From: Mycobacterium phage prophiGD51-2
DNA: 51,838 nt
Sequence record: MW584195.1
Reading direction: 5' to 3' (one strand)
Positions 1,570 through 51,838 of this stretch are shown in pieces. Position 1 is the stretch's first letter. Every line of letters begins with the position of its first letter. The position numbers and the translations under genes were made by a program. The notes beneath the pieces were generated by a model, which did no database searches, was not told where the DNA came from, and saw only the letters and a program-made list of their open reading frames with translations.

Positions 1570-1581
1570 GTCGGTCTTCTC

Positions 1582-16388: not shown

Positions 16389-16518
16389 CCCCACCCGGGT
16401 ACCCCCTCGGACTCCGTCGAGTTCCTCGGGTGGCATAGGCGCTCGGCAAACGTACGGGTCTGGAGATTTTCAACCGACAACGCGCCGCTCGGCGCACCTC
16501 GCCGAGGAGGTGGTTCCG

Positions 16519-16992
16519 ATGGCTGGACGCGGACCCGCCCCGAAGCCGGAAGGCTCCCGCGCGCGGCGCAACGGCTCGGCGGTGTCGATGAAGGTGTACA
16601 CCTCCGAACCGACCACGCAGCCGGAGCTGCCGGAGTTCGACGTGCAGGTCGAGGTCGACGGCGCGATCGTCTCGCAGGCCTTCGTCTGGCCGCCGGCCAC
16701 CCGCCGGTGGTGGGAGACGTGGGGCGCTGAGCCGATGGCTGCGGACTTCACCGCCACCGACTGGGACTTCTTGCTCGACACCGCGCTGCTTCACGCGCGG
16801 GTGTGGGCGGAGGGCGACCTCAAGCTCCTCCCCGAACTGCGGCTGCGCGTCGCGAAGCTCGGCGCGACCGGCGAGGACCGCGCACGTCTGCGGATCACAT
16901 ACGCCGCCGCCGACCAGGCCGACGAGAAGCGGAAGACTCCGCCGCCCGGCGGCGGAAGCCGTTCCCGTCGGGGTCCGCTCAAGGCGGTGTAG
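16519..16992 (+). CDS. Terminase small subunit (P27-family-like)
   Basis: The N-terminus 'MAGRGPAPKP' is typical of the P27 family. The RBS is GAGGAGGTGG, then 5 nt, then ATG. Confidence 0.75.
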   Translation: MAGRGPAPKPEGSRARRNGSAVSMKVYTSEPTTQPELPEFDVQVEVDGAIVSQAFVWPPATRRWWETWGAEPMAADFTATDWDFLLDTALLHARVWAEGDLKLLPELRLRVAKLGATGEDRARLRITYAAADQADEKRKTPPPGGGSRSRRGPLKAV

Positions 16993-16999
16993 CTCCACC

Positions 17000-18661
17000 G
17001 TGCCGTGGAAGCCCTCCGAGGCCGGCGAAGTGCCGACCCTCGGCTGGTACGCGATCGACTGGATGACCGAGCACCTCGCGGCGCCCGGGAAGCTCGACTA
17101 CGAGCCGTTCCGGCCGACGCCGGAGCAGGAGGACTTCATCCTCCGCTGGTACGCGCTCGACCCGCGCACCGGCCGGTTCCTCCACGACCGCGGCCTGCTC
17201 GGCCGGCCTCGCGGTTGGGGCAAGAGCCCGCTCCTCGCCGCCATCGCGTGCTTCGAGGGACTCGGCGACTGCCTGCCCGACGGGTGGGACGCCGACGGTC
17301 AGCCCGTCGGCCGGCCATGGGCGACGGTGCGCACCCCGGTGGTGCACATCGCCGCGGTGACCGAGGACCAGACCCGAAACACGTGGCAGCCACTCCTCGA
17401 GATGCTGCGCGAGGGGCCGGTCCTCGACGCCTACCCCGGCCTGGACCCGATGGACACGTTCGTTTCGCTGCCGTGGTCCGGCGAAGCGCGCATCGAGCAG
17501 ATCACCGCCTCGGCGCGCAGCACCAAGGGCGCCCCGATCGTGTTCGCCACCCTGGACCAGACCGAGGAGTGGGTGCCCGGCAACGGTGGCCCGCGTCTCG
17601 CGCAGGCGATCCGCACCAACGCCGCGAAGAACGGCGGGCGCACGATCGAGAGCCCGAACGCGTTCATCCCCGGCGAAAACAGCGTCGCCGAGGAGTCCGC
17701 CGCGTTCGCCGCGAAGATCGCGGCCGGACAGACTCTCGCGACCGGCCTGCTACTCGATCACCGCGAAGCGCCGGCCGACACCGACATGAGCGACCGCGAG
17801 TCGCTGACCCACGGCCTCCGCGTCGCGTACGGCGACAGCAGCGCGCACCCCGACGGGTGCTTGCTGCACACCCCGCCGTGTCCGCCCGGGTGGGTGGAGC
17901 TGGAACCGCTTATCCAGCGCGCCTGGGATCCGTCGAGCGACCCGCAGGTGATCCGCTCCGACCTGCTCAACCAAATCACGCACGCCTCGGACTCGTGGCT
18001 GTCGAAACCGGCCTGGACCGCAGCGGCGGACGCCGCCAAGGTGATCGCCACCGGCGACACCATCGTCCTCGGCTTCGACGGCTCCCGCGGCCGCAACAAG
18101 GGCAAGGCCGACGCCACCGCGCTGATCGGCTGCCGCGTAGAGGACGGGCACCTGTTCGAGATTCGCGTCTGGGAGCAGGGACCGACCGACGACAAGGACT
18201 GGACCCCGAACGCGATCGAGGTGGACCGCGAGGTTCGCCGGTGCTTCGAGGACTACAACGTGGTCGGCTTCTACGCAGACCCGTCCGGCTGGACAGAGTG
18301 GATCGCGAAGTGGGAGGCCACCTTCGGCCGACGGCTCCGCGTTCGCGGCTCGCAGGATCACCCGATCATGGCCTGGCCGCGCGGCAAGGACTCGCGCATC
18401 GTCGAGTACGTCGAACGGTTCCGGCTCGCGACTGTGAACGGCGAACTGTCGCACGACGGTTCAAGCACCCTCACTCGCCACGTGCTGAACGCGCGCCGCC
18501 GCTCGACCCGGACCGGCTACCTGATCTTCAAGAAGTTCCCGGACTCGCCGGACAAGATCGACGCCGCCTACGCGGCGGTCATGGCATGGAAGGCGCGGAC
18601 CGACGCTCTCGCGAAGGGCGTTGGCGCGCAGCGCAAAACCAAGCGGAAGGCGGTGTTCTGA
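17000..18661 (+). CDS. Terminase large subunit
   Basis: Terminase ATPase Walker A 'GRPRGWGKSPLLAAIA', followed by a C-terminal nuclease region. The GTG start at 17000 is uncertain. Confidence 0.8.
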   Translation: MPWKPSEAGEVPTLGWYAIDWMTEHLAAPGKLDYEPFRPTPEQEDFILRWYALDPRTGRFLHDRGLLGRPRGWGKSPLLAAIACFEGLGDCLPDGWDADGQPVGRPWATVRTPVVHIAAVTEDQTRNTWQPLLEMLREGPVLDAYPGLDPMDTFVSLPWSGEARIEQITASARSTKGAPIVFATLDQTEEWVPGNGGPRLAQAIRTNAAKNGGRTIESPNAFIPGENSVAEESAAFAAKIAAGQTLATGLLLDHREAPADTDMSDRESLTHGLRVAYGDSSAHPDGCLLHTPPCPPGWVELEPLIQRAWDPSSDPQVIRSDLLNQITHASDSWLSKPAWTAAADAAKVIATGDTIVLGFDGSRGRNKGKADATALIGCRVEDGHLFEIRVWEQGPTDDKDWTPNAIEVDREVRRCFEDYNVVGFYADPSGWTEWIAKWEATFGRRLRVRGSQDHPIMAWPRGKDSRIVEYVERFRLATVNGELSHDGSSTLTRHVLNARRRSTRTGYLIFKKFPDSPDKIDAAYAAVMAWKARTDALAKGVGAQRKTKRKAVF

Positions 18662-20169: not shown

Positions 20170-21934
20170 GTTCCAGGGGCTGCTCTCGGAGCTGTCGAAC
20201 CGCCTCGGCGGTGAGGTGGCGAACCTGGTCCCGCGCCTCGACCGTCTCGACGACGGCGAACGCCGCCGGTTCATCACCTCGGCGTACCCGCAGATCGCGA
20301 CGCCCTACCTCGCCGCTGCCGGAGACCTGACCGCCGCGTTCTACGACGCCCAGCCGAGCCTCACCCGTGGGTTCACCGCGCAGCCCGCTGCGCTGGCACC
20401 CGTCGAGCAGCTCGCGGCGTCGGGGCGGTGGGGGATCGCGCAGCGTGACCCGATCATCGCCCTGCAGGGCTCCGCCACGCGCAGCGTGTTCGACAGTAGC
20501 CGAAGCACGGTGCTGCACAACGTGACCCGTGAGACCGGCGCACAGTGGGCGCGATACGCCTCGGCCAACGCGTGCGGCTTCTGCCGGATGCTCGCCACCC
20601 GCTCGATCGGCAGCGGCTCGCTGTACAGCAGTGAGCGCGCCGCCACTCGGGTCGTCGGGCGCGGCAAGGACATGTCCCCGATGGAGCGCCGTATCCGTGC
20701 CGCCGGAGGGGAACGCATCGGCGGGCGGTTCATCGCCGCCGGCCGCAGCCCGCGCGGGAATCAGAAGATCGGCGACCGGTACCACGATCACTGCCGCTGC
20801 ACCGCGGTGGCGATCCGCCCCGGCGACACCTACGAGCCGCCCGACTACGTGTACCAGTGGGAGCGCGACTACGTCGAGGCGACCCGCGCACTCGGCCGCA
20901 GCGGTGAGCCGCTCACAGCAACCAACGTGGTCCGCCACATGGAGACCACCGCGGCGGAACGCACCGCGAAGGTGCAGGCCGCCCGTACAGCACAGGCCGC
21001 CGACGAGGCGTTCGCGCAGCAGGTCCGCAACGAGCACTGGCAGGCCACGCTCGACTGGCTTGACGCCGAGGACGCACAGATCGCGCGGAACCGGTACTTC
21101 CAGCAGATCGACGACGCGGCGGAAGCCGAACGGCGGCAGCGGATCCTGTCCTGGCTCGACGCCGAGGACGAGCACCGCGCCGCGGTCGCGTACTGGCACC
21201 GCGTCGACGACGAGCTGCGCGCTGTTCCCGCAGTCGAGCACGGCGCGGCACAGACGGCGGTGTCCGCCGACGTCTCCGCCACCGTCGCCGAGTCGGAACT
21301 CGACCGCGCGGTCGCGAAGCTGGAAGCCGCCCTGGCGTCCGGTGCCGACGACGCCACGATCCTCCGCCTGTCGGAGGCAGCCGAAGCGATCGAGCGCAAG
21401 GTCTCCGCAGAGGACGCGGCCACCGCTCTCCGGACTCGCCGACGCGAGCAGGCCGCAGCCCGCCGCGAAGCTGCGGACCGGGACAAGTGGGACCGGATCA
21501 TCGCCCTCATCGAGGACGAGGGCTACGACCCCGCCGAGGCCGAGTCCAAGGTCACCGGCGTCGACATCGTCAAGATCTGGAAGCGCGACTTCATGGCGCA
21601 GGCGCGCCGCGACGGTCACTACGGGGACAGCTTCGAGGAGCTGCTCGGTTCCGTGCACAAACAGCGCGTCGCCGAGCTGTACCTCGAAGCTGAGAACGCA
21701 ACGCGCGGAGCGCTGTTCAAGCGGTCGAGCATCAAGGCGGACGGCACGTTCCCGTTCGATCCGATCCTGTTCTGGTCCATGCCGGCGGAACGGGTGCGCA
21801 AGCACGCGAGCCCTGAGCTGGCCGAATGGTTCGACCAGAACGGCCGGCTGACCCGTACCATGATGCGCAACGCCATCCTGTCCGGCCGAGGCTGGAAGGA
21901 ACACGGCGGAGACAGAGAGGACTTCCTGCAGTGA
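20150..21934 (+). CDS. MuF-like head morphogenesis/minor capsid protein with a long Ala/Glu/Arg-rich C-terminal region containing internal 'WLDAED...' repeats
   Basis: It follows the portal gene and has the Cys-containing segment 'NACGFCRMLATRS...DHCRCTAV'. The tandem protein repeats are 'WLDAEDAQIARNRYFQQIDD' and 'WLDAEDEHRAAVAYWHRVDD'. Confidence 0.55.
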   Translation: MVSGLPEFQGLLSELSNRLGGEVANLVPRLDRLDDGERRRFITSAYPQIATPYLAAAGDLTAAFYDAQPSLTRGFTAQPAALAPVEQLAASGRWGIAQRDPIIALQGSATRSVFDSSRSTVLHNVTRETGAQWARYASANACGFCRMLATRSIGSGSLYSSERAATRVVGRGKDMSPMERRIRAAGGERIGGRFIAAGRSPRGNQKIGDRYHDHCRCTAVAIRPGDTYEPPDYVYQWERDYVEATRALGRSGEPLTATNVVRHMETTAAERTAKVQAARTAQAADEAFAQQVRNEHWQATLDWLDAEDAQIARNRYFQQIDDAAEAERRQRILSWLDAEDEHRAAVAYWHRVDDELRAVPAVEHGAAQTAVSADVSATVAESELDRAVAKLEAALASGADDATILRLSEAAEAIERKVSAEDAATALRTRRREQAAARREAADRDKWDRIIALIEDEGYDPAEAESKVTGVDIVKIWKRDFMAQARRDGHYGDSFEELLGSVHKQRVAELYLEAENATRGALFKRSSIKADGTFPFDPILFWSMPAERVRKHASPELAEWFDQNGRLTRTMMRNAILSGRGWKEHGGDREDFLQ

Positions 21935-22122
21935 GCACGTACACGGTCGCCGACCTGGTGCGCGCGCGTGCGGAAGGCCTCACTGCCGAGGTGGGCGCCG
22001 AGAACCCGTACGCCGGAGCGTCTCTCGTGCTCGCACAGGTCTGGCGCCGCGCGTACATGACCCGCCTCGCGGTCCGGTTGGAACGTTCACCCGGACGGCA
22101 GAGCATCACCGCCGAGCAGTAG
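21931..22122 (+). CDS. Small hypothetical protein (63 aa)
   Basis: The GTG start overlaps the MuF-like stop (GTGA). It lies in frame within listed ORF 21826..22122. Confidence 0.45.
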   Translation: MSTYTVADLVRARAEGLTAEVGAENPYAGASLVLAQVWRRAYMTRLAVRLERSPGRQSITAEQ

Positions 22123-27646: not shown

Positions 27647-30600
27647 GTGGCCGGAACCTACTACGTCACTGTCCTTCCCGAGACCTCGAAGTTCGAGGCC
27701 GGCATTCGCCAGGCGGGACAGCGCGCCGAGCGTGGCATGCGGCTGCGGCCGGAGTTCGACACTTCCGGAGCGCAGCAGGCCGGCCAGCGTGCAGGTCGCG
27801 ATGTGCAGTCCGGCATGGATACCGCCGCCCGCTCCGGCGGCGGTATCCGCGGGTTCTTCCGTGCCGACGGCGCTCGCGCGGCGGGTGAGCAGGCCGGCCG
27901 CGAGGTCAACTCCGGCCTGCAGTCCGCGAACGTGGGATCCGGTCTTGGGTCGCAGGTTCGGGCGAACCTCGGCGACGGCGAGACCGTCGGCCGATCGTTC
28001 GGTGCACGCCTCGCAGGTGGCTTGAAGGCCGCCGCTGCTATCGGCGGAGCGACCGCGGTCGCCGGCATCGGCTACGCGATGACGAAGGGGTTCTCGCGGC
28101 TGGTCGAGATCGACACCGCGAAGTTCAAGCTCCAAGCTCTCGGCAACAGCGCGCAGGACGTCCAGAACATCATGGACAACGCCACCGCCGCGGTGAAGGG
28201 CACGGCGTTCTCCCTGAACGAGGCCGCGACCACCTCGGCGTCCGCCGTCGCCGCTGGCATCAAGCCTGGCAAGGAGCTGACGCAGTACCTCGGCACGACC
28301 GCCGACGCCGCCGCGGTCGCCGGTACCTCGCTCGCTGAAATGGGCTCGATCTTCAACAAGATCAGCACGGCGAACAAGGCCTACACCGGCGACCTGCAGA
28401 TGCTCTCGGACCGCGGCATCCCGATCTTCCAGTGGATCGCCAAGGAGGCCGGAGTCACCGCCGACGAGGTCGGCGAGATGGCGAAGAAGGGCCAGATCGA
28501 CTCCGCGATGTTCCGCACCGCGATCGAGAAGAACATCGGCGGCGCAGCCAAGGGCATGGGCGGCTCGTTCATGGGCGCCCTCGCCAACCTCAAGGCCTCC
28601 ATCGCCCGGTTCGGTGCCGGTCTCGCCGGTCCCGTGGTCGAGGGGCTGCGGCCGATGCTCAACGCGGGCATGACCGTGTTCGACGGCATCACCAAGGCGA
28701 TGGGGCCGAGCATGAAGAGCCTCACCGCCATGACGGGCGCCTGGTCGGCCGACATGGCCGCGAAGGTCACCGCGTGGGCTGAGAACGGTGGCGTCGAACG
28801 TGCTGCCGCCCGCATCTCCTCGGCAGTCAACTCGGCGCTCGGCTGGCTCCGGCAGGCCGGCACGTGGATCAGCGACGTCTGGAAGCAGATCCAGAACCCC
28901 GACGCCGGAGGCGCGGACGCGGGCGCCACCTTGAAGAGCGTCGGCGACGCAGCCAAGGGCATCGGCGACGCCGCACAGTCCGCCGGCCCCGCGCTGCGCA
29001 CCATCGGCGAGTCGCTGGTCGCTATCGGTCCCGAGACTCTGCGCAGCGTGCTCGTGCCCGGGCTGCAGCTGCTCGGCGACGCGCTGAAGTTCGCCGCCGA
29101 CAACGCATCCTGGCTGCTGCCCGTGGCCGCTGGGTTCCTCGCAATCCGCGCCGCGACGAGCGCCGCAGTTCCGTTCGTGCAGGCCTACGCCGCCACCATG
29201 AACGTGATCCGCACGCCGGTCATCATGGCGCAGGCGCTCGCGCAGCGGACCCTCGCCGCCGCCATGCGTGAGCACACCGCAGCGCTCGCGGCCAACACGG
29301 GCGCGCAGATCGGCAACGACACCGCGACGAACGCCGGTGTCCTCGCGAAGACCCGCGCCGCTGCCGCCGCCATCGCGTCGACCGTCGCGGAGAAGGCACG
29401 CGCAGCCGCCACCAAGATCGGCACCGCCATCCAGCTCGCCTTCAACGCCGTCATGGCGATGAACCCGCTCGTGCTCATCATCGCCGCGGTCGTCGCCGCT
29501 GGCGTCGCCATCTGGGCGTTCTTCACCAAGACCGAGACCGGCCGCAAGCTCTGGGACAAAATCTGGAACGGCATCAAGGCCGTCACGAATGCGGTCGTCG
29601 GCTGGATCATGAACACGGCCGTGCCGTGGCTCAAGCAGGCCTGGGATCGCGTGTCGCAGGACGCGATGTGGCTGTGGCACAACGTCATCGAGCCCGTCTT
29701 CAACGGCGTCAAGGGCGTTATCGAGGCGGTCGTCGGCTGGATCATGAACACGGCCGTCCCGTGGGCGCAGCAGGCGTGGCAAAACTTCACTACAGGTCTG
29801 CGCGTCATCATCGACACCGCGACCTCGGTGCTAAACGGTGTGCGCGAGAAGTTCACGGCCGTCGTCGATTTCGTCCGCGGCCTGCCCGACAAGATCAAGT
29901 CCGCGGCGTCGGGCATGTGGGACGGCATCGGCAACGCGTTCAAGTCCGTGGTCAACGGCATGATCCGCGTCTGGAACGGCTTCGCGTCGAAGTTGTCCTT
30001 CACCACCCCCGATTGGGTGCCGGGACTCGGTGGCAAGTCGTTCTCCATCCCGACGATCGCGGAGTTCGCCGAAGGCGGCTGGACCGGCCCCGGTAGCAAG
30101 TACCAGGCCGCTGGCATCGTGCACGCCGACGAGTTCGTGCTCAGCAAGGCCGCACGCGCAGCGATCGAGGGGCGTCACCCCGGCCTGCTCGACTTCATGA
30201 ACCGCACCGGCGAGCTGCCCGCACTTCGCGGCTACGCAGAGGGCGGACAGGTGTCGGCCGCGTCCCTGGTCAACTTCGCGAAGGGCGTCGAGGGCCAGCC
30301 CTACAAGTGGGGCGGCGTGAACTGGGGCGATTGCTCCGGCGCTGTCTCGGCCATCGCCAACTACGCCACCGGCCGTGACCCGTTCGGCTCCCGCTTCGCC
30401 ACGGGCAGCGAGAAGAGCGAGCTCGCAGCGCGCGGCTTCAAGCCCGGTCTGGGACCGTCCGGCTCGCTGAACATCGGTTGGTTCAACGGCGGGCCGTACG
30501 GCGGTCACACCGCTGCGACGCTGCCCGACGGCACCAACTTCGAGATGGGCGGCGGCCGAGGCAACGGCCAGTTCGGCGGCAAGGCCGCAGGCGCCAACGA

Positions 30601-31684
30601 CTCGCAGTTCACCGACCACGCGCACTTGCCGCCGGAGTTCTTCACCGGCCTGGACGCCGGTTCTCCCACCACCGGTGGCGCGGGTGTCGGCGCTGCCACC
30701 GGTAGCGGCGGAAGCGGCGGTTCCGGCAGTAGCTCCGTGGGTAGCTCGACCAGCGGCGGCGGTGCCAGCTACCGCGCGGCCACCTCGGCCGAGCTGTCGT
30801 CCGCATCGGAGAAGACCAGCAACGCCGCGACCGCGAAGAAGAACGCGGACCAGTCCGTCTCCGATCGCGAGTACGCGCTGGAGAAGGCGAAGCGGCAGCG
30901 CGACGAGCTCGCGGCGAAGAAGCACACCGACGCGCAGATGCAGGACGCCAACCGCCGCGTCGAGGTCGCGGAGCGGGAGCTCGCCGACGCCAAGGAGCGT
31001 CAGACCAAGGCCGCCGACAAGCTGACTCAGGCGCAGCAGGAAGAGAGCGACCTGAAGACCAAGGGCAAGGAAGTCAAGGCCAAGGGCGGCAAGGACTCCG
31101 ACGGCAAGAGCAACGGGCTCAACGGCTCCGACTTCGGCAAGACGTTCGTGTCCGGTGTCCTCGAAAGCATCGGCCTCGACGGCTCGGTGTTCAGCAACCC
31201 GCTGGAGTGGCCGACCGTCAAGAGCGCGATGGCCGGCGTGAACTGGCTCGGCGGTCTGCTCAAGGGCGGAGACAGCGAGAGCGGCAGCTCCGCCGGAGCA
31301 GCCACCAGCGCGGGTGCCGGAGGTTTCGCGACCGGCGCGGCCGACGCGGTCGGGCTAGGCGGGTTCCTCAAGAACCTGCCCGGCAACCCGGTCGGCGAGG
31401 CCACCAGCCAGAGCGGCGCGGACTGGACCCCGCAGAGCGGCAGCCCGAAGCTCGCACAGGGCCAGTGGAACCCGGCGCAGCCCGGCGGCAACACGGTCGC
31501 CGGAACCGCGGCGAACACGCTGTCGGCGTTCGTGCCGAACGTCGCCCCGCAGCCGTCGACGACCGGCGGGCCGGTCGACAACTCGATCAACATCAACGGC
31601 CCGGTCGGCATGAACCCGACCGACGTCCAGAACAAGGTCCACAGCGAGCAGAACGCGCGGACCCGGACCACGGTCGTGCGCTAG
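27647..31684 (+). CDS. Tape measure protein with an embedded NlpC/P60-like peptidase motif
   Basis: It is a 1345-aa Ala/Gly-rich protein after the G/GT genes. The GTG start follows GGAAGGAGCG. The internal motif is 'QPYKWGGVNWGDCSGAVSAIANYATG'. Confidence 0.85.
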   Translation: MAGTYYVTVLPETSKFEAGIRQAGQRAERGMRLRPEFDTSGAQQAGQRAGRDVQSGMDTAARSGGGIRGFFRADGARAAGEQAGREVNSGLQSANVGSGLGSQVRANLGDGETVGRSFGARLAGGLKAAAAIGGATAVAGIGYAMTKGFSRLVEIDTAKFKLQALGNSAQDVQNIMDNATAAVKGTAFSLNEAATTSASAVAAGIKPGKELTQYLGTTADAAAVAGTSLAEMGSIFNKISTANKAYTGDLQMLSDRGIPIFQWIAKEAGVTADEVGEMAKKGQIDSAMFRTAIEKNIGGAAKGMGGSFMGALANLKASIARFGAGLAGPVVEGLRPMLNAGMTVFDGITKAMGPSMKSLTAMTGAWSADMAAKVTAWAENGGVERAAARISSAVNSALGWLRQAGTWISDVWKQIQNPDAGGADAGATLKSVGDAAKGIGDAAQSAGPALRTIGESLVAIGPETLRSVLVPGLQLLGDALKFAADNASWLLPVAAGFLAIRAATSAAVPFVQAYAATMNVIRTPVIMAQALAQRTLAAAMREHTAALAANTGAQIGNDTATNAGVLAKTRAAAAAIASTVAEKARAAATKIGTAIQLAFNAVMAMNPLVLIIAAVVAAGVAIWAFFTKTETGRKLWDKIWNGIKAVTNAVVGWIMNTAVPWLKQAWDRVSQDAMWLWHNVIEPVFNGVKGVIEAVVGWIMNTAVPWAQQAWQNFTTGLRVIIDTATSVLNGVREKFTAVVDFVRGLPDKIKSAASGMWDGIGNAFKSVVNGMIRVWNGFASKLSFTTPDWVPGLGGKSFSIPTIAEFAEGGWTGPGSKYQAAGIVHADEFVLSKAARAAIEGRHPGLLDFMNRTGELPALRGYAEGGQVSAASLVNFAKGVEGQPYKWGGVNWGDCSGAVSAIANYATGRDPFGSRFATGSEKSELAARGFKPGLGPSGSLNIGWFNGGPYGGHTAATLPDGTNFEMGGGRGNGQFGGKAAGANDSQFTDHAHLPPEFFTGLDAGSPTTGGAGVGAATGSGGSGGSGSSSVGSSTSGGGASYRAATSAELSSASEKTSNAATAKKNADQSVSDREYALEKAKRQRDELAAKKHTDAQMQDANRRVEVAERELADAKERQTKAADKLTQAQQEESDLKTKGKEVKAKGGKDSDGKSNGLNGSDFGKTFVSGVLESIGLDGSVFSNPLEWPTVKSAMAGVNWLGGLLKGGDSESGSSAGAATSAGAGGFATGAADAVGLGGFLKNLPGNPVGEATSQSGADWTPQSGSPKLAQGQWNPAQPGGNTVAGTAANTLSAFVPNVAPQPSTTGGPVDNSININGPVGMNPTDVQNKVHSEQNARTRTTVVR

Positions 31685-40183: not shown

Positions 40184-40546
40184 ATGCCCGCAACCGACGC
40201 GCACAACATCGACCTTTGCAGCTACAAGTGCTCCAAGGGCGCGAAGATCACGCTCCACGAGACTGACCCCGGCACCACCGGCGCAGGCCTGATCGCGACC
40301 ACCCCGGCCAGCGCGACCACCGCATGGGGAGCGGTCGCAATGGGTTCCGGCGGCGACGCCGGATACGCGGTCTCGCTCGGCAGCCTGTGCAACTTCACCA
40401 TCCCGCCGGGCAAGACCGCGGGGTGGTTCGGCGTGTGGAACGGCTCGACGTTCCTCCGCGGCTCCGCGCTCGACGCGTCTCTGACTACCAACGCGCAGGC
40501 CGTGAACGTCGACATCACGCCGAAGACGCGCCACAAGGAGAACTGA
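40184..40546 (+). CDS. Hypothetical protein (tail/lysis junction)
   Basis: The RBS is CAAGGAGATAACGC-ATG. Confidence 0.5.
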   Translation: MPATDAHNIDLCSYKCSKGAKITLHETDPGTTGAGLIATTPASATTAWGAVAMGSGGDAGYAVSLGSLCNFTIPPGKTAGWFGVWNGSTFLRGSALDASLTTNAQAVNVDITPKTRHKEN

Positions 40547-40547
40547 C

Positions 40548-41324
40548 GTGGACGCGCAGACCCTCGCCGCGGCGATGGGGAACCGCCTCGGAGGCGCGGC
40601 CGAGTACGCCCGCTTCGTCGACGGGATGAACGCCGCGATGATCGCGGCCGACATCAACTCCCCGCTGCGCGCTGCTCACTGGTGCGCGCAGATCGGGCAC
40701 GAGTCGGCCGGCCTCCGGTACATGGAGGAGATCGCGAGCGGCGACGCCTACGAGTGGCGCGGCGACCTCGGCAACACGCAGCCGGGCGACGGCCGGAAGT
40801 TCAAGGGCTCCGGGCCGATCCAGCTGACCGGCCGCGCGAACTTCACCCGGTTCTCTCAGTGGGCGTGGGAGCACAACCACATCGAGACACCCGACCTGCT
40901 GGTGCATCAGCCGCAGCTCGTGCGTGAGGATCCGCGCCTCGGGTTCCTCGCCGCGTCCTGGTACTGGACCGTCGCACGGCCGCAGTTGAACTCGCTGTGT
41001 GACCGCGACGACCTCGTCGGCGTCACTCGCGCGATCAACGGCGGCACCAACGGAATCGACGACCGCCGTGCGCGTCTCGCGCAGTGCAAGGCGCTCGGCG
41101 TGGCACTGCTCCCGACCCCCACGGCCTCGACCGCATACCTGCAACCCGACGAGATTCTCGCGCAGCTCGGCCCCGGCCACCCGTCGTGGAAGCCGCTCGG
41201 CCGCAACGACAACGGCGACCCTCTCACGCTGCGCGACGCGATCGGCGTCATCGGCCGCGAGAAGGCCGAGACCGGACGACTGCTGCGGGCTATCGCCCGC
41301 CCCACCACAGGAGGTACCCCGTGA
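40548..41324 (+). CDS. Endolysin (lysin A), glycoside hydrolase family 19-like catalytic domain plus C-terminal ~50-aa domain shared with the next lysin
   Basis: The GH19-like segment is 'HWCAQIGHESAGLRYMEEI...GSGPIQLTGRANF'. The GTG start follows AAGGAGAACTGAC and overlaps the upstream stop. Confidence 0.75.
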   Translation: MDAQTLAAAMGNRLGGAAEYARFVDGMNAAMIAADINSPLRAAHWCAQIGHESAGLRYMEEIASGDAYEWRGDLGNTQPGDGRKFKGSGPIQLTGRANFTRFSQWAWEHNHIETPDLLVHQPQLVREDPRLGFLAASWYWTVARPQLNSLCDRDDLVGVTRAINGGTNGIDDRRARLAQCKALGVALLPTPTASTAYLQPDEILAQLGPGHPSWKPLGRNDNGDPLTLRDAIGVIGREKAETGRLLRAIARPTTGGTP

Positions 41325-42052
41325 CGTTCACCGTGACCCGACAGCGCGCGCAGGAGGTCCACGACCTCGCCCGTGCTCGCGCAGGCCTGCCCTACGCCTA
41401 CGGCGGTGCCTTCACACTCGACCCGAAGCGCTCGACGGACTGCTCCGGACTCGTGCTGCAGACCGCCGCCTGGTACGGCGGGCGCACCGACTGGCCGGGC
41501 AACCGCTACGGCAGCACCGAGAGTTTCCGCCTCGACCACAAGATCGTCTACGACCTCGGCTTCAAGCGCCTCCCGGCCGGCGGCGTCGCGGCGCTGCCGT
41601 TCAAGCCGGTCATGCTCGTCGGGCTCCAGCACGGCGGCGGCGGGGTGTACTCGCACACCGCCTGCACGCTCATGACGATGGACATCCCCGGCGGGCCGGT
41701 GAAGATGTCCGACCGAGGCGTCGACTGGGAATCGCAGGGCGACGGCGTGTTCCTGTACGACGGTGCCCGCGCCTGGAACGATCCGCTGTTCCACGACTTC
41801 TGGTACCTCGACGCGCGCCTCGACGACGCCGCGCCGGCCCCCGTGCCCTCCGCGCCGAAGCTGACGACCGAGCAGGCGTTGAACGAGATCCTCGCGCAGC
41901 TCGGCCCTGGTGACCCGTCGTGGAAGCCGCTCGGCCTCGACGAGAACGGCCTGCCGCTGACGCTGCGCGACGCCATCCGCATCATCGGCGCCGAGACCGC
42001 AGAGCAAGGGCGGCTGGTCCGTGCCATCGCATCGCAGCGGGGTATCCAGTGA
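41321..42052 (+). CDS. Endolysin (lysin A), NlpC/P60-family peptidase domain plus the same C-terminal domain
   Basis: It has 'DCSGLVLQTAAWYGG' with the catalytic Cys. The GTG start follows CAGGAGGTACCCC and overlaps the upstream stop (GTGA). Its C-terminus 'ILAQLGPGDPSWKPLGLDENGLPLTLRDAIRIIG' parallels the 40548 gene's 'ILAQLGPGHPSWKPLGRNDNGDPLTLRDAIGVIG'. Confidence 0.75.
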   Translation: MTFTVTRQRAQEVHDLARARAGLPYAYGGAFTLDPKRSTDCSGLVLQTAAWYGGRTDWPGNRYGSTESFRLDHKIVYDLGFKRLPAGGVAALPFKPVMLVGLQHGGGGVYSHTACTLMTMDIPGGPVKMSDRGVDWESQGDGVFLYDGARAWNDPLFHDFWYLDARLDDAAPAPVPSAPKLTTEQALNEILAQLGPGDPSWKPLGLDENGLPLTLRDAIRIIGAETAEQGRLVRAIASQRGIQ

Positions 42053-43293
42053 CGGCACCGCATCTCAGCACCGACGCCGTCCAGCTGTGGCACGGCGACT
42101 GCCGCGATGTGCTCGCGCAGCTGCCCGACGCGTCCGTCGACAGCGTCGTGACCGATCCGCCCTACGAGCTCGGCTTCGGCGGGAAGTCCTGGGACAGTAC
42201 CGGTATCGCGTTCGACCTGGAGCTGTGGGCGGAGTGTCTGCGGGTGCTCAAGCCCGGAGGTCACCTGCTCGCGTTCGGAGCGTCGCGAACGTGGCACCGG
42301 CTAGCGGTCGCCGTCGAGGACGCCGGTTTCGAGCTGCGCGACTCGATCGCGTGGCTGCGCGGCAACGGGATGCCCAAGTCGGTCGACCTGACCGGCGCGA
42401 TGGAACGGCACCTCGCGGGCGAGCGGTTCGACGACACGGGGCCGAGCCCGGACCTATACGCCGTGACCGCCTACCTGAGACAAGCTCGTGACGCCGCTGG
42501 GTGGAGCAACCGCCAGATCGACGGGCTGTTCGGAACCCACGGGATGGCAGGGCACTGGACCACGAAGGCGAGTCAGCCCGCGTGCCCGTCGCTGCGGCAG
42601 TGGGAGGAACTCAAGAGCGCGCTCGCGCCGCACCTCGGCGACGACGTGGACGAGCTCGTGCATCGCCTCTGCTCGACCGAGCGACCCGACGACTGGGGCA
42701 CCCGCACCGAAGCGGACGGCGGCAGGTTCCTCGGCTCGCTCGCGAGCGGTGGCGCTCTCGGCGGCGGTGGCGCGTTCGGGACCGGCATGAAGCCGGCCTT
42801 CGAGCCGATCGTGGTGGGGCGGAAGCCGCTCACCGGGAGCGCGAAGCAGAACGTGCTCGCGCACGGCACCGGCGCCCTGCACATCGGAGCGTGTCGCATC
42901 GGCGAGGAACGCCGCTGGCCGCCGAACGTGATCCTCGACGACGAGGCCTCCGCCGAGGTCGAGGACCAGTTCACCGGCGCCGCGCGGTTCTTCCCGACGT
43001 TCCGGTACGCCCCGAAGGCTCCGCCGCGTGAGCGGCCGACCGCCGACGGTATCGCACACCAGACCGTGAAGCCGCTGGAGCTGATGAGGTTCCTCGTGCG
43101 CCTCGTGACGCCGCCGGGCGGCACGGTGCTCGACCCGTTCGCCGGTAGCGGCACCACCGCGGAAGCCGCGCTGCTCGAAGGCTTCTCGGTCATCACCTCC
43201 GAGCGCGAGACCGACTATCTGCCGCTGATCGAGCAGCGGATCAACCGGGCGACGGCGAACGTCGCCGACGACGAAGAGGAGATGGCGGCATGA
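42049..43293 (+). CDS. Orphan DNA methyltransferase, beta-class N6-adenine/N4-cytosine type (motif IV DPPY before motif I)
   Basis: Motif IV is 'SVVTDPPYE' and motif I is 'VLDPFAGSGTT'. The GTG start overlaps the lysin stop (GTGA). Confidence 0.75.
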   Translation: MTAPHLSTDAVQLWHGDCRDVLAQLPDASVDSVVTDPPYELGFGGKSWDSTGIAFDLELWAECLRVLKPGGHLLAFGASRTWHRLAVAVEDAGFELRDSIAWLRGNGMPKSVDLTGAMERHLAGERFDDTGPSPDLYAVTAYLRQARDAAGWSNRQIDGLFGTHGMAGHWTTKASQPACPSLRQWEELKSALAPHLGDDVDELVHRLCSTERPDDWGTRTEADGGRFLGSLASGGALGGGGAFGTGMKPAFEPIVVGRKPLTGSAKQNVLAHGTGALHIGACRIGEERRWPPNVILDDEASAEVEDQFTGAARFFPTFRYAPKAPPRERPTADGIAHQTVKPLELMRFLVRLVTPPGGTVLDPFAGSGTTAEAALLEGFSVITSERETDYLPLIEQRINRATANVADDEEEMAA

Positions 43294-43775
43294 ACGCCAC
43301 GACACAGAAGGCAGTGACCGAAGCCGCGACGAACGCCGTTATCGACGTGCTCGCCGCGCAGCCCTGGTGGCGGCGGTACGCAAACACGGTGACCACCGCA
43401 GCGGGTGGACTCGTGACGCTCGGCACCTGGGCGCTGACGACGGAGCTCGCTTTGCCGCGACCGGTGCAGATCGTCCTCGGCGTCCTGGTGCTCGTCGCCT
43501 CGGTCGTCGCGTCTCGGGCGACTCGTAACGGTGTGACGCCGCGCGGCAACACCGACGTCCTCGGAGCGGTGATCCCCGCGGTGACAGCGGCGGTGCAGCC
43601 GGGCGAGGGAAGCCTGGACCGGCTCGTGCAGGACAAGGCGACCGAGGCCGCGAACGCGGTCACGGAGCAGGTCACGCAGGCCGCGACCTACGTCATCACC
43701 GGCGCTCCTGACGCTGCGGCCAAGGTCGCCGACGTGGTCAGCGAGGCCGAGCGCGCGTTCCTCGGGCGGAGCTGA
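43290..43775 (+). CDS. Holin-like membrane protein (2 TM)
   Basis: ATGA overlap with the MTase stop. The RBS is GAAGAGGAG. The hydrophobic helices are 'LVTLGTWALTTELAL' and 'IVLGVLVLVASVVAS'. Confidence 0.55.
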   Translation: MNATTQKAVTEAATNAVIDVLAAQPWWRRYANTVTTAAGGLVTLGTWALTTELALPRPVQIVLGVLVLVASVVASRATRNGVTPRGNTDVLGAVIPAVTAAVQPGEGSLDRLVQDKATEAANAVTEQVTQAATYVITGAPDAAAKVADVVSEAERAFLGRS

Positions 43776-43777
43776 CC

Positions 43778-44200
43778 TTGCGGTGGCTGCCGCGGCGCGG
43801 CCGATGGGTGCCACTGCTGCCGCCCACGTCGCGGAATGTAGTCGTCGGTCTCGTGCCGGTCGAGCCGATCATCCGCGGCGCGGACTACGCGCTCCCCGGC
43901 GGTGACACAGCGCCGCAGCTGAACATCATCGAGCAGGCCGCTCCGATCCAGATGTGGGGCGCGCTGTGCCTGCTCGCCGGTGTCGTCGCGCTCGTCGGGT
44001 TCCTCGGCCGGTGGCGCTTGGTGTGCATCGCTGGTCTGTGGCTCGGCGCGTGCACCTACGCCGCGCTCGCGGTCGGCCAGTGGGCGGAAGTCGTCGGCCA
44101 CCCGTGGCTCGACGGTGTTCGCGGACCGGCGATCGTCACGGTATTCGCCGCTGCGCAGGCCGGCCTCGCGCTCGGCTACGCGCGGCAGGGTGACGCGTGA
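43778..44200 (+). CDS. Membrane protein, lysis-associated (start uncertain)
   Basis: A TTG start lies 2 nt after the upstream stop, with GGGCGGAG upstream. There are multiple TM segments. Confidence 0.45.
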   Translation: MRWLPRRGRWVPLLPPTSRNVVVGLVPVEPIIRGADYALPGGDTAPQLNIIEQAAPIQMWGALCLLAGVVALVGFLGRWRLVCIAGLWLGACTYAALAVGQWAEVVGHPWLDGVRGPAIVTVFAAAQAGLALGYARQGDA

Positions 44201-44592
44201 GCTGGGAGGCACCCGCTGGGGTGCACTGGCTGGTGTGGTTGATCATCGTTCTCCTTTTCGGCCCGCCGGCCCTCGGGTCTAAGGCGGCGGCGCGGATTCC
44301 GGGTGTGCTCGGCGTGGCCGGCCGATGGTGGCAGAAGCGGAAGCGAGAGCAGGTCGACCTGGACGAACTCGGGCGGCTCCGAGCAGGGCTGGAGTCGCTG
44401 CGCAAGGACTACGACCGCGACGTTCCGGCCCTGCAGACCCGCATCGACGCACTGGAGGAGCAGCTCACCGCCGCGACGCGCAAGCTGTGGGCGGCAGTGG
44501 ATCACATCCGCATGCTGACCGGGATGCTGCGCCGGCACGCTCCCGGTGTGCCGGTGCCCGACCCTCCCGACGAACTCGAAGACGTGATGTAG
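44197..44592 (+). CDS. N-terminal TM plus coiled-coil protein (spanin/lysis-accessory-like)
   Basis: GTGA overlap with the upstream gene. The TM is 'VHWLVWLIIVLLFGPPALG', followed by the coiled-coil 'LGRLRAGLESLRKDYDRDVPALQTRIDALEEQL'. Confidence 0.55.
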   Translation: MSWEAPAGVHWLVWLIIVLLFGPPALGSKAAARIPGVLGVAGRWWQKRKREQVDLDELGRLRAGLESLRKDYDRDVPALQTRIDALEEQLTAATRKLWAAVDHIRMLTGMLRRHAPGVPVPDPPDELEDVM

Positions 44593-44612
44593 CCCGAACC
44601 TCCCCATGTGAA

Positions 44613-44655
44613 TAGCCCCCGTTCCAGTTCAGGAACGGGGGCTATTCGTCGTCGT
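44613..44655. terminator. Bidirectional terminator between the convergent late (+) and early (-) operons
   Basis: TAGCCCCCGTTCC-AGTTCAG-GAACGGGGGCTA followed by TTCGTCGTCGT. Confidence 0.7.
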
Positions 44656-49890: not shown

Positions 49891-50421
49891 ATGACTAGAC
49901 CAGTTACAGCCCACGGACCCGGATCCGTCGCCGTTGCCTACAACGTCCGCCGCCGTCGCAATGAGCTGGACATGAGCGGCACCGAACTGCGAGACCGACT
50001 GTCCGCCTTCGGATTAAACGTTCACCGCAGCTGGGTGTCAGAGGTGGAGAACCGCAAGCGAACCGTCGACGTCGACGAGCTTCTCGTGCTCGCGGCGGCG
50101 CTTACCGTCAGCCCGTCCACATTGCTGATGCCCCGGGCGGTCACGCCGGAGGACGTCGTGCCGACGGTGAGCGGCCCGCGCGACGCGCGGGACGTCTGGG
50201 ATTGGATAGCGGCCGAGCGCTCGCTCGGGAGCAGTTGGCTTGACGCCGACGACGAGGCGGAACGGCGCCGGTACCGCGCGGTGGCGCGCCCACCGTGGGT
50301 GGCATTCGCCGAGTCAGCGGTTGAGCACGGCGCCGCCGTGCAGGTCTCCCGCGACGTCCCCACGGATGAAGAGGTACCCGCCGAGGTACTGGAAGAAGAT
50401 CGCGCGGAGGCCAAACGATGA
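49891..50421 (+). CDS. Prophage repressor (XRE-family HTH)
   Basis: The HTH is 'MSGTELRDRLSAFGLNVHRSWVSEVENRKR'. The ATG at 49891 has no SD, which suggests a leaderless transcript. The gene ends in ATGA overlap with the integrase start. Confidence 0.65.
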   Translation: MTRPVTAHGPGSVAVAYNVRRRRNELDMSGTELRDRLSAFGLNVHRSWVSEVENRKRTVDVDELLVLAAALTVSPSTLLMPRAVTPEDVVPTVSGPRDARDVWDWIAAERSLGSSWLDADDEAERRRYRAVARPPWVAFAESAVEHGAAVQVSRDVPTDEEVPAEVLEEDRAEAKR

Positions 50422-51623
50422 CCGAGCAGAAGCGCACGCGGCGCAGCAACGGGGAAGCCAGCTACCGGAAGCGCTCCGACGGCCGGTGGGAGGGCCGGAT
50501 CCGGATCGTTGATGATCGCGGCGAGGTGCACCGGCCGAGCGCCTACGGCAAGACCAAGGCTCTGGCTAAGGCCGCGTTGGAGGAGAAGATCAGCCGCATC
50601 CGTGAGGGCGTCGCCGTCGTCGACTCCCGCAGCACAGTGGCCGAGGTCGCGCGCCGCTGGTGTGAGGTGACGCTGCAGGCGAGCCCGCGGAAGCGGGCCA
50701 CGAAGGAGCTGTACGACGCGCGCAGCCGTCTGCACATCGAGACCGGGCACCTCGCTGCGATCCCGCTGAACCGGCTCACGGCCGTGCACGTCGAGGAATG
50801 GATTCTGGCGGAGCGCGCGGGCGGTACCGCGCCGAGCAGCCAGCGCACGGACTACGCGGTGCTGCGCGCCGTCCTCGACGGCGCGGTCCGGGACAAGTTG
50901 GTCGCGCGGAACGTCTGCGAGACGGTCAAGCGCCCGCATGTGCCGAAGCGCGAGGCCGTTCACCTCGACCCGGCGCAGGTTGCTGCATTGCTCGCCGCGA
51001 CCGCCGGAAGCAGCCACGCGCTACCCATCCGCCTCTACGCACGGACCGGTGCACGCCGCGGCGAGGTGTTGGCGCTGCGGTGGAAGGATGTCGACCTCGT
51101 GAACGGCACCGTCACCGTCGCCGGGACCATGTCCGGGAGCGGGAAGAAGTTGCGCCGGGAGCCCGAGGCGAAGAGCAGCTCGGCGCACCGGCCGCTGCCG
51201 ATCGGGGCCGACCTTGTGGAGGAGCTGCGGACGTGGCGGAAGCGTCAGCAGCAGCACCGCGCCGCCGCGATGCAGCTGTGGGAGGACGTCGAGGGCTTGG
51301 TCTTCACGACTGAGTTCGGCCGGCCGCTCGATCCTCGGAACGTCCTCCGCACGGTGCAGACCGCCGCGCAGAGGTTGGGGCTCCCGAAGGAAACCGGGGT
51401 GCACACGCTCCGGCACAGCGCGGCCACCGCGCTGCTCGAAGGCGGGGCGCACCTGAAGCTCGTCTCGTCGATCCTCGGCCACTCGGACACGAGCATTACC
51501 GCCAACATCTACGGGCACGCGACGGACTCGGCGGCGCGTGCCGCCCTCGACGCGCTCGCTGTCACGCAGGCCGCGAAGCCGGCGGAGCCGGAGGACGGTC
51601 GGCACCTGCGCGCGGTTCCGTGA
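50418..51623 (+). CDS. int: Tyrosine integrase
   Basis: The catalytic residues are in conserved context: R in 'ARRGEVLAL', H-x-x-R in 'HTLRHSAAT', H in 'ILGHSD', and Y in 'ANIYGH'. It lies adjacent to attR. Confidence 0.9.
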   Translation: MTEQKRTRRSNGEASYRKRSDGRWEGRIRIVDDRGEVHRPSAYGKTKALAKAALEEKISRIREGVAVVDSRSTVAEVARRWCEVTLQASPRKRATKELYDARSRLHIETGHLAAIPLNRLTAVHVEEWILAERAGGTAPSSQRTDYAVLRAVLDGAVRDKLVARNVCETVKRPHVPKREAVHLDPAQVAALLAATAGSSHALPIRLYARTGARRGEVLALRWKDVDLVNGTVTVAGTMSGSGKKLRREPEAKSSSAHRPLPIGADLVEELRTWRKRQQQHRAAAMQLWEDVEGLVFTTEFGRPLDPRNVLRTVQTAAQRLGLPKETGVHTLRHSAATALLEGGAHLKLVSSILGHSDTSITANIYGHATDSAARAALDALAVTQAAKPAEPEDGRHLRAVP

Positions 51624-51795: not shown

Positions 51796-51838
51796 CTGGG
51801 GGTCAAGTGGTCGCAGGTTCAAATCCTGTCAGCCCGAC
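51796..51838 (+). repeat. attR core: exact 43-nt repeat of window positions 1..43 (tRNA 3' fragment)
   Basis: It is identical to the window start. Identity may extend beyond the window edges. Confidence 0.85.

What the first reader, a model, noticed from the sequence alone, without database searches (positions are those of the whole stretch)
42049..43293. Orphan beta-class DNA methyltransferase sitting inside the lysis cassette where LysB would be expected
Between the second endolysin and the holin-like gene, GTGA-coupled upstream and ATGA-coupled downstream, lies a DPPY...FxGxG (motif IV before motif I) N6A/N4C methyltransferase with a large insertion. No mycolylarabinogalactan esterase (LysB) was recognisable in the window. 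A methylase co-expressed late with lysis genes suggests progeny-genome anti-restriction modification. Separately from its role, the absence of a LysB points to a non-mycolata host.
Basis: partly seen in the sequence, partly recalled or inferred. Interest (0 to 1): 0.6.

Follow-up and report, generated by a model that had tools for sequence, protein, structure and literature searches.

The report
Phage DNA methylase inside lysis operon
A Mycobacterium abscessus prophage carries an ordinary, already-annotated phage DNA adenine methylase wedged between its cell-wall-cutting enzymes and its holin; the gene order is unusual, but the missing LysB esterase does not mean the host lacks mycolic acids.

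Summary
ORF 42049-43293 (+, 414 aa) is a real beta-class N6_N4 DNA methyltransferase: DPPY at residues 36-39 precedes FAGSG at 364-368, and Pfam PF01555 scores E=2e-28. It shares GTGA and ATGA start/stop overlaps with a peptidase endolysin upstream and a holin-like gene downstream.

- **Host.** The window is a complete 51,838-bp Mycobacteroides abscessus prophage with 43-bp att cores at both ends. Its length equals published prophiGD51-2 (cluster MabP). The host is therefore a mycolata.
- **LysB.** Every search found LysB absent, but this fits a known pattern: LysB-less mycobacteriophages usually carry a GH19 lysin, as here.
- **Not a LysB replacement.** A related prophage (73% identical methylase) has LysB, LysA, methylase and holin in that order.
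- **"Large insertion".** This ~140-160-residue helical block is conserved across the whole family and sits where beta-class enzymes carry their target-recognition region.
- **Orphan status.** No nuclease partner is adjacent. The prophage's other methylation module (MAD2/MAD5-like, 11865-15208) has its own methylase.

Most likely it is a solitary methylase, co-transcribed late, that marks progeny DNA against host restriction. The gene is already annotated in GenBank. Only its placement is uncommon: seen in three related prophages, with a holin family matching 2 of 130 neighbours of homologues elsewhere. Interest is low.

The parts
42049..43293 (+). Solitary beta-class DNA methyltransferase, 414 aa, predicted to be N6-adenine specific
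   Evidence: PF01555 E=2.4e-28 and phrog_67 6e-79. The AlphaFold model has pLDDT 80.8, and Foldseek's best PDB hits are CcrM 6pbd (6e-15), M.BceJIV and M.RsrI. The exact sequence is AMU55769.1 'DNA methyltransferase [Mycobacteroides abscessus]'. dN/dS is 0.17 against the M. chelonae prophage copy.
42154..42165 (+). Motif IV, DPPY (aa 36-39), the catalytic motif
   Evidence: Read directly from the sequence. D36, P37, P38 and Y39 are invariant in 43 homologues.
42379..42798 (+). It lies at the position of the beta-class target-recognition region.
   Evidence: It falls between the two blocks that align to CcrM. The model shows helices at 115-207 with high confidence for 130-210, while 214-241 is disordered. 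Mean column identity across 16 homologues is 67%. A profile search found no solved relative, best E=0.09.
43138..43152 (+). Motif I, FAGSG (aa 364-368), the AdoMet-binding motif
   Evidence: Read directly from the sequence. F364, G366, S367 and G368 are invariant.
40548..41324 (+). Endolysin 1: GH19 glycoside hydrolase plus a ~65-aa C-terminal domain
   Evidence: PF00182 3.6e-6 and phrog_9506 endolysin 2e-70. It is 44% identical to AnnaL29 LysA residues 195-363.
41321..42052 (+). Endolysin 2: N-terminal peptidase domain plus the same ~65-aa C-terminal domain. It overlaps both neighbours by GTGA.
   Evidence: phrog_317 endolysin 1e-50. It is 90.6% identical to AnnaL29 LysA residues 1-171.
43290..43775 (+). 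Holin-like protein, 161 aa, with one hydrophobic segment
   Evidence: phrog_3428 holin 1.1e-20. The hydrophobic segment spans aa 51-79. It is 61% identical to the corresponding L007 gene.
43853..44200 (+). Small membrane protein, 115 aa (140 aa if it starts at the TTG at 43778)
   Evidence: The gene call is, the hydrophobic segments, and phrog_1298.
44197..44592 (+). Last gene of the rightward late operon, 131 aa, with an N-terminal hydrophobic segment
44606..44652 (.). Strong hairpin between the late operon and the convergent leftward genes; a likely terminator
   Evidence: The fold has dG -34.7 kcal/mol and z = -7.9, and 0 of 200 shuffles fold as well.

Best explanation
The gene encodes a solitary phage DNA methyltransferase of the beta class, predicted to be N6-adenine specific. 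It belongs to a temperate Mycobacteroides abscessus phage, cluster MabP, very probably prophiGD51-2.

**What is shown**
- The gene lies inside the rightward late operon, in the order GH19 lysin, peptidase lysin, methylase, holin-like gene and two small membrane-protein genes.
- It is joined to both neighbours by 4-nt start/stop overlaps.
- A strong hairpin follows the last gene of the operon.

**What is inferred**
- The methylase is made late in lytic growth together with the lysis proteins.
- It methylates replicated phage DNA at a short sequence read by its conserved helical central region, before or during packaging.
- Released genomes are then protected from restriction systems of the next host.

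The missing LysB is a separate matter. This phage, like other LysB-less mycobacteriophages with a GH19 lysin, simply lacks the esterase.

The confidence given (0.62) is for the late anti-restriction mechanism. That the gene is a beta-class DNA methyltransferase is near certain.
For: - **Family and fold.** PF01555 and PHROG 67 match. DPPY precedes FAGSG, and both motifs are invariant in homologues. Foldseek's best hits are the beta-class N6-adenine enzymes CcrM, M.BceJIV, M.RsrI and M1.HpyAVI.
- **The gene is functional.** dN/dS is 0.17 against the M. chelonae prophage copy, similar to the neighbouring lysis genes at 0.13-0.24. Its GC content (0.707) equals that of its neighbours.
- **Operon context.** The overlaps are GTGA, GTGA and ATGA. 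No promoter-like or terminator-like site above chance separates the methylase from its neighbours: the only hits are one promoter-like site further downstream at 43902-43929 and one minus-strand terminator-like site inside the methylase gene, both within shuffle expectation. A hairpin follows at 44606-44652.
- **The placement is inherited.**
  - The M. chelonae prophage L091 (93% identical methylase) has the same order.
  - L007 (73% identical) has LysB, Amidase_2 LysA, methylase and holin.
  - Homology between the window and L007 runs unbroken from the lysin C-terminal domain through the methylase (73%) and holin (61%) to the integrase (87%), while the tail genes are only 27-37% identical.
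- **Solitary.** The flanking genes are a lysin and a holin. The only other restriction-modification-like genes, at 11865-15208, carry their own gamma-class methylase and S subunit.
- **Selective pressure exists.** Restriction in M. abscessus clinical strains blocks phage BPs and is overcome by methylation (PMC11604996).
- **Host and LysB.** One search gives the M. abscessus and M. chelonae protein names. One search matches prophiGD51-2 at 51,838 bp. One search shows the 43-bp att cores at both ends. document the LysB-less, GH19-bearing phages.
Against: - No expression, methylome or activity data exist for this gene. Late timing is inferred from gene order only.
- The target sequence is unknown. 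N4-cytosine specificity is not excluded, because N4C enzymes of the same fold also match at lower rank.
- A host-encoded cognate nuclease cannot be ruled out.
- Homologues at 50-60% identity in other actinobacterial phages and prophages sit in early or replication regions or next to terminase genes. Late expression is therefore not a general property of the family.
- The related L007 copy is separated from LysA by a ~100-nt gap that could hold its own promoter.
Confidence: 0.62

Rival explanations
1. It is the modification half of an ordinary restriction-modification system whose nuclease lies elsewhere, either in the prophage or in the host chromosome.
For: The prophage does carry another restriction-like module at 11865-15208. 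It consists of a nuclease-like HSDR_N_2 domain fused to an N6 methylase, plus an S subunit. PADLOC's best models for the 42049 gene are 'Type II methyltransferase'.
Against: The other module has its own gamma-class methylase and lies 27 kb away on the opposite strand, with a different GC content (0.62-0.65). No nuclease gene adjoins the methylase in the window, L091 or L007. Homologues in more than 800 isolated phage genomes are annotated as stand-alone methylases.
Confidence: 0.07
2. It is a lysogenic-conversion gene. It would be expressed from the prophage and change the host methylome, for epigenetic regulation or to protect the host chromosome.
For: Prophage-borne orphan methylases that remodel host methylomes are known in other bacteria (established knowledge; for example the E. 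coli ST131 methylome paper PMC4659465 listed, not read here). L007 has a ~100-nt gap upstream of its copy.
Against: In the window the gene has 4-nt overlaps on both sides inside the lysis operon, and no promoter-like site lies upstream. Lysogenic transcription would probably also express the overlapping holin-like gene downstream, and if it began upstream, the endolysins too. According to PMC10654092, lysogenically expressed genes of M. abscessus prophages are typically close to the integration locus, and this gene is not.
Confidence: 0.12
3. The methylase serves the phage's own DNA metabolism, for example by marking DNA for packaging or replication control as P1 Dam does at pac, rather than countering restriction.
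For: Among 130 immediate neighbours of homologues in 80 viral contigs, the commonest annotated families are the large and small terminase subunits. The P1 Dam/pac precedent is established knowledge.
Against: In this prophage the terminase genes are 25 kb away (16510-18661). No packaging-site evidence was obtained. Proximity to terminase elsewhere may only reflect the end of the early region.
Confidence: 0.1
4. It is an inert passenger or decaying gene with no current role.
For: None was found. It is listed only because activity has not been tested.
Against: The reading frame is intact and all catalytic and AdoMet motifs are invariant. dN/dS is 0.17 and 0.32 against the two diverged copies. The position is conserved in three prophage lineages.
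Confidence: 0.03

Closest known systems
Actinobacteriophage ~400-450-aa N6_N4 DNA methylases (PHROG 67), e.g. Mycobacterium phage DS6A gp73, Arthrobacter phages LittleTokyo/Galaxy, cluster E phage HufflyPuff gp101
   Same: They are 49-54% identical over 95-98% of the length and include the conserved helical central region. They have the same Pfam family and the same beta-class motif order.
   Different: In those phages the gene lies in the early or replication region, next to HTH/replication-initiation or ssDNA-binding genes, not in the lysis cassette.
CcrM / M.BceJIV / M.RsrI (solved beta-class N6-adenine DNA methyltransferases)
   Same: They share the same fold and motif order. These are the best Foldseek and phmmer hits.
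   Different: Identity is only 16-19%. The window protein has about 160 extra residues between the two conserved halves and lacks CcrM's C-terminal domain. It scores 79 bits against the NCBIfam CcrM equivalog cut-off of 830, so it is not a CcrM orthologue.
LysB-less mycobacteriophages with GH19 lysins (Che12, Packman, Rosebush, Qyrzula, Charlie, Redi)
   Same: They infect a mycolic-acid host, have no LysB gene, and carry a GH19 domain in the endolysin (PMC3314691, PMC6116114).
   Different: Here the endolysin is split into two genes, GH19 and peptidase, each with its own copy of a ~65-aa C-terminal domain, and a methylase follows them.
Published M. abscessus prophage cluster MabP / HP (prophiGD51-2, MW584195)
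   Same: The length is identical at 51,838 bp including two att cores. It integrates at the 3' end of a tRNA gene using a tyrosine integrase, and the host species is the same.
   Different: Sequence identity could not be checked because the accession is not in the searchable collections. The papers do not discuss the methylase or the lysis cassette.

Membership tests
Beta-class N6A/N4C DNA methyltransferase (Pfam PF01555 N6_N4_Mtase) | Score above the Pfam gathering threshold | tested here: met
   100 bits against a cut-off of 26.7, E=2.4e-28.
Beta-class N6A/N4C DNA methyltransferase (Pfam PF01555 N6_N4_Mtase) | Catalytic motif IV (D/S)PP(Y/F) lies N-terminal to AdoMet motif I FxGxG (the circular permutation of the beta class) | tested here: met
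   DPPY at aa 36-39 and FAGSG at aa 364-368. Both are invariant in 43 homologues.
Beta-class N6A/N4C DNA methyltransferase (Pfam PF01555 N6_N4_Mtase) | Methyltransferase fold shared with solved beta-class enzymes | tested here: met
   The model has pLDDT 80.8. Foldseek probability is 1.00 to CcrM, M.BceJIV, M.RsrI, M1.HpyAVI and M.MboIIA.
Beta-class N6A/N4C DNA methyltransferase (Pfam PF01555 N6_N4_Mtase) | Transfers methyl groups to DNA; base (A-N6 or C-N4) and target sequence | not testable with these tools
   DPPY rather than SPPY/F favours N6-adenine (established knowledge of beta-class motifs). The target is unknown.
Solitary (orphan) methyltransferase | No restriction nuclease gene adjacent or in the same operon | tested here: met
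   The neighbours are an endolysin and a holin-like gene in the window, L091 and L007.
Solitary (orphan) methyltransferase | No cognate nuclease anywhere in the host genome | not testable with these tools
   The host chromosome is not available here. The only other restriction-like module in the prophage has its own methylase.
CcrM-type cell-cycle methylase (NCBIfam NF050803) | Score above the equivalog cut-off | tested here: not met
   79 bits against a cut-off of 830.
Lysin B (mycolylarabinogalactan esterase), presence anywhere in the window | A cutinase-like serine esterase ORF similar to known LysB proteins | tested here: not met
   tblastn with AnnaL29 LysB and L007 LysB gave a best E of 0.99 and 0.045, in non-coding frames. 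The LysB HMM against six frames gave a best E of 0.73, while the same HMM finds AnnaL29 LysB at 3e-5. No Cutinase or PE-PPE hit appears among the called genes.
MADS defence system (for the separate module 11865-15208) | MAD2 and MAD5 above NCBIfam cut-offs, and the other mad genes present | tested here: not met
   MAD2 scores 617 bits against 720 and MAD5 scores 203 against 400, both full length. No other mad genes were found apart from a weak mad8 hit at 1582-3540.

The most novel reading that the evidence does not exclude
The methylase-holin linkage would be a functional unit rather than an accident of gene order. Tying methylase synthesis to the lysis operon would delay methylation until just before packaging. 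That timing could let progeny carry a protective mark while avoiding methylation-dependent (type IV-like) or methylation-sensing defences during replication. Alternatively, it could shield progeny from the MAD2/MAD5-like module that this prophage itself carries. The linkage would be co-inherited across phages of Mycobacteroides and a LysB-bearing relative whose LysB is closest to Tsukamurella proteins.
Probability: 0.08. Interest if true: 0.5.

Novelty: new member of a known kind. Interest (0 to 1): 0.2.

Why it matters
The practical value is modest. M. abscessus phage therapy is limited by strain-specific restriction (PMC11604996). A phage-borne methylase that pre-modifies progeny DNA could be one determinant of host range and might be useful for engineering therapeutic phages. 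The finding also corrects a tempting rule of thumb: a missing LysB does not indicate a host without mycolic acids. The gene itself is already annotated in GenBank and belongs to a large, well-known family, so nothing here overturns current understanding.

Tried and rejected
- **First scan of representative genomes.** Scanning with the single protein found no relatives. The second scan, with an alignment, gave 80 loci from many phyla. None was from Mycobacteroides, and none had a lysin, holin or LysB homologue within 6 kb by tblastn with my eight lysis queries.
- **Viral-contig loci.** The same tblastn test on 80 IMG/VR loci was also empty. It is limited to relatives of those particular lysis proteins.
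- **The window in the phage collection.** No record covers more than 13% of the structural region, and MW584195 is not held. Identity with prophiGD51-2 therefore rests on exact length, att structure and host.
- **Naming the central 'insertion'.** A profile of 16 sequences against all PDB sequences gave only a chance hit at E=0.09. Whole-model Foldseek aligns only the methylase core.
- **Host of the related prophage L007.** All its proteins are known only from unnamed read-archive assemblies. The Tsukamurella link rests only on the nearest named relatives of its LysB.
- **The left-end cassette (209-4712) as the missing MADS genes.** No support was found.
- **Literature on a methylase inside an actinophage lysis cassette.** None was found, and the M. 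abscessus prophage papers do not mention the gene.
- **Promoter and terminator consensus scans.** They were at chance level. They are not designed for mycobacterial signals.
Full report
**1. What is in the sequence**

It runs from a GTG at 42049 to a TGA at 43291-43293 and encodes 414 aa.

- The stop of the upstream gene (TGA 42050-42052) overlaps the GTG.
- The methylase's own stop overlaps the ATG of the downstream gene at 43290.
- DPPY lies at residues 36-39 and FAGSG at 364-368. This motif-IV-before-motif-I order defines beta-class amino-methyltransferases.
- Pfam N6_N4_Mtase matches in two stretches at E=2.4e-28, 100 bits against a cut-off of 26.7.
- PHROG 67 'DNA methyltransferase' matches at 6e-79.
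- An AlphaFold model built on 43 homologues has mean pLDDT 80.8. Its best matches among solved structures are the beta-class adenine methylases CcrM, M.BceJIV, M.RsrI, M1.HpyAVI and M.MboIIA.

**2. What the window is**

The first 43 bases and the last 43 bases of the window are identical and look like the 3' end of a tRNA gene. A tyrosine integrase gene lies at 50418-51623.

The exact methylase, the neighbouring lysin and the integrase are GenBank proteins of Mycobacteroides abscessus. Copies at 90% identity or more occur in M. chelonae. The exact methylase is indexed in 41 blocks of the assembly collection.

Table 1 of Dedrick et al. 2021 (PMC8092301) lists one prophage of exactly 51,838 bp: prophiGD51-2, cluster MabP, attB-6 at a tRNA 3' end, accession MW584195. 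That table counts both att cores in its lengths. The window is therefore very probably that published prophage. I could not align the two because the accession is not in the searchable collections.

**3. Gene map around the finding**

| Coordinates | Gene |
|---|---|
| 16510 / 17000 | Terminase small and large subunits |
| 23322 | Capsid (portal and MuF-like genes precede it) |
| 27647-31684 | Tape measure |
| to 40162 | Minor tail genes |
| 40184-40546 | 120-aa gene |
| 40548-41324 | GH19 endolysin |
| 41321-42052 | Peptidase endolysin |
| 42049-43293 | Methylase |
| 43290-43775 | Holin-like gene (phrog_3428) |
| to 44592 | Two small membrane-protein genes |

- The junctions from 40546 to 43293 are a 1-nt spacer followed by GTGA, GTGA and ATGA overlaps.
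- Consensus scans find no promoter-like or terminator-like site separating the methylase from its neighbours, only chance-level hits elsewhere in the scanned region.
- A very stable hairpin (dG -34.7 kcal/mol, z = -7.9) follows the last gene, just before the convergent leftward genes.
- The methylase is therefore an internal gene of the late lysis operon. This is shown by anatomy; its timing is inferred.

**4. LysB and the host**

LysB could not be found by any method.

- tblastn with LysB of phage AnnaL29 and with the LysB of the related prophage L007 found nothing.
- An HMM of 16 LysB proteins against all six reading frames gave a best E of 0.73. The same HMM detects AnnaL29 LysB.
- None of the called genes has a Cutinase or PE-PPE hit.
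- Every ORF of 200 aa or more with coding-like GC3 has another assignment or no family match.

The host is M. abscessus, which has mycolic acids.

Payne and Hatfull (PMC3314691) list mycobacteriophages without LysB: Che12, Packman, five B2 phages, Myrna, Charlie and Redi. Catalao and Pimentel (PMC6116114) note that all of these except Myrna have a GH19 lysin. This prophage fits that pattern.

**5. The methylase is not a replacement for LysB**

A prophage known only from read-archive assemblies (L007) has a methylase 73% identical to this one. Its gene order is a 280-aa cutinase-like protein, then an Amidase_2 LysA, then the methylase, then a holin-like gene.

The 280-aa protein looks like LysB on four counts:
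- It carries a GYSLG motif.
- It matches phrog_102 at 8e-27.
- It has a weak Pfam Cutinase hit.
- Its nearest named relatives are a Tsukamurella 'cutinase family protein' and Tsukamurella phage TIN2 'Lysin B'.

Protein-by-protein comparison shows that homology between the window and L007 begins in the last ~65 residues of the lysin. It continues through the methylase (73%), the holin-like gene (61%) and the leftward genes to the integrase (87%). The tail genes are only 27-37% identical and the lysin catalytic domains differ.

The M. chelonae prophage L091 has the same order as the window. The methylase thus belongs to a conserved right-hand module together with the holin, and lysin catalytic domains and LysB are exchanged upstream of it. 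Its GC content equals that of its neighbours. Its dN/dS is 0.17 against L091 and 0.32 against L007, indicating purifying selection.

**6. The 'large insertion'**

Relative to CcrM, about 160 extra residues lie between the two conserved halves.

- The block is conserved throughout the family, with mean column identity of 67% in 16 homologues and many invariant residues.
- It is predicted to be mostly helical, with high confidence for residues 130-210 and a disordered glycine-rich stretch at 214-241.
- It has no relative among solved structures by profile search.
- It occupies the position where beta-class enzymes carry their target-recognition region. I infer, without test, that it reads the target sequence.

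**7. How unusual is the position?**

- The family is very large. All 8,000 scored candidates reached E <= 1e-20, and 828 phage records hold a match.
- In isolated actinobacteriophages (DS6A, Arthrobacter phages, cluster E) the gene overlaps or abuts HTH/replication-initiation or ssDNA-binding genes.
- In Cryobacterium and Microbacterium prophages (55-59% identity) it lies in the early region.
- Among 130 immediate neighbours of homologues in 80 viral contigs, the commonest annotated families are terminase subunits, other methylases and HNH nucleases. A holin family is matched by only two neighbours.
- No relative of my eight lysis-protein queries lies within 6 kb of 160 further homologues.

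The lysis-cassette position is therefore uncommon. In the data I could reach it is confined to this small prophage lineage. I found no paper describing it.

**8. Is it an orphan?**

No nuclease gene is adjacent in any of the three prophages. The prophage does carry a second methylation-based module on the opposite strand at 11865-15208.

- A 662-aa protein combines an HSDR_N_2 nuclease-like domain with a gamma-class N6 methylase.
- A 458-aa specificity subunit accompanies it.
- NCBIfam matches both proteins over their full length to MAD2 and MAD5 of the MADS defence system, but below the curated cut-offs. The other mad genes are missing.
- The module has lower GC (0.62-0.65) than the prophage (0.69) and looks like an acquired defence cassette.
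- Because it has its own methylase, it does not turn the beta-class enzyme into an ordinary restriction-modification pair.

A host-encoded partner cannot be excluded here.

**9. Most likely mechanism and rivals**

The best-supported reading is a solitary phage methylase made late with the lysis proteins. It would methylate progeny DNA before packaging and so protect it from restriction in the next host. I give this mechanism about 0.62; the identity of the gene as a beta-class DNA methyltransferase is near certain.

Restriction does limit phage infection of M. abscessus, and methylation overcomes it (PMC11604996).

| Rival | My weight |
|---|---|
| Lysogenic expression that changes the host methylome | about 0.12 |
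| A role in the phage's own packaging or replication | about 0.10 |
| The modification half of a dispersed restriction-modification system | about 0.07 |
| An inert passenger | about 0.03 |

Each can be separated from the others by methylome sequencing of virion versus lysogen DNA, heterologous expression, and transcript timing.

**10. Verdict**

It is wrong on the host inference and on the idea that the gene stands in for LysB.

The gene is already annotated in GenBank, sits in a published prophage, and belongs to a well-known family. The only new element is a gene-order curiosity shared by three related prophages. Interest is low.

Noticed in passing
window 1-43 and 51796-51838: There is an exact 43-bp direct repeat at the two ends of the window, resembling the 3' end of a tRNA gene (attL/attR cores). 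The window length of 51,838 bp equals that listed for M. abscessus prophage prophiGD51-2 (cluster MabP, attB-6, MW584195) in PMC8092301.
   Followed up: partly
window 11865-13241 (-) and 13220-15208 (-): This is a two-gene methylation-based defence-like module with lower GC (0.65 and 0.62, against 0.69 for the prophage). It lies between the replication genes and the terminase. One gene encodes a 662-aa protein with an HSDR_N_2 nuclease-like domain fused to a gamma-class N6 methylase; the other encodes a 458-aa specificity subunit. Both give full-length but sub-threshold matches to NCBIfam MADS MAD2 (617 bits, cut-off 720) and MAD5 (203 bits, cut-off 400). The other six mad genes were not found.
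   Followed up: partly
window about 41115-41297 and 41831-42037; also L007 7679-7885: The endolysin is split into two genes, GH19 and peptidase. Each ends in the same ~65-aa domain (LAQLGPGxPSWKPLG...LTLRDAI...), which has a weak Pfam Rv3766_C hit. The same domain ends the Amidase_2 lysin of the related prophage L007 (63-71% identity). It is presumably a cell-wall-binding module.
   Followed up: partly
window 41321-41840: The peptidase domain of the second lysin is 90.6% identical in protein, and about 86% in DNA, to the N-terminal domain of LysA of cluster A M. smegmatis phages such as AnnaL29. The rest of the prophage has no close relative in the phage collection. This suggests a recent domain exchange.
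   Followed up: partly
window 44606-44652: A very stable hairpin (dG -34.7 kcal/mol, z = -7.9) lies between the end of the rightward late operon and the convergent leftward genes. It is a likely bidirectional terminator without a T-run, and the consensus terminator scan missed it.
   Followed up: yes
window 209-4712 (-): A leftward four-gene cassette lies at the att-proximal left end. It includes a 652-aa FtsK/EccC-like ATPase at 1582-3540 (phrog_1358 2e-16, a weak PADLOC mad8 hit, a weak EccCa hit) and three proteins with no family match. It may be a lysogenically expressed defence or secretion-related cassette.
   Followed up: partly
window 21931-22122 (+): A 63-aa ORF directly after the MuF-like head gene carries a precomputed Pfam hit to RMF (ribosome modulation factor, PF04957).
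   Followed up: no
whole window; L007: Prophage GC is 69.2%, several points above the ~64% I recall for M. abscessus (own knowledge, not tested). The closest diverged relative (L007, GC 69.6%) has a LysB whose nearest named relatives are in Tsukamurella. This hints that the lineage moves between mycolata genera.
   Followed up: partly
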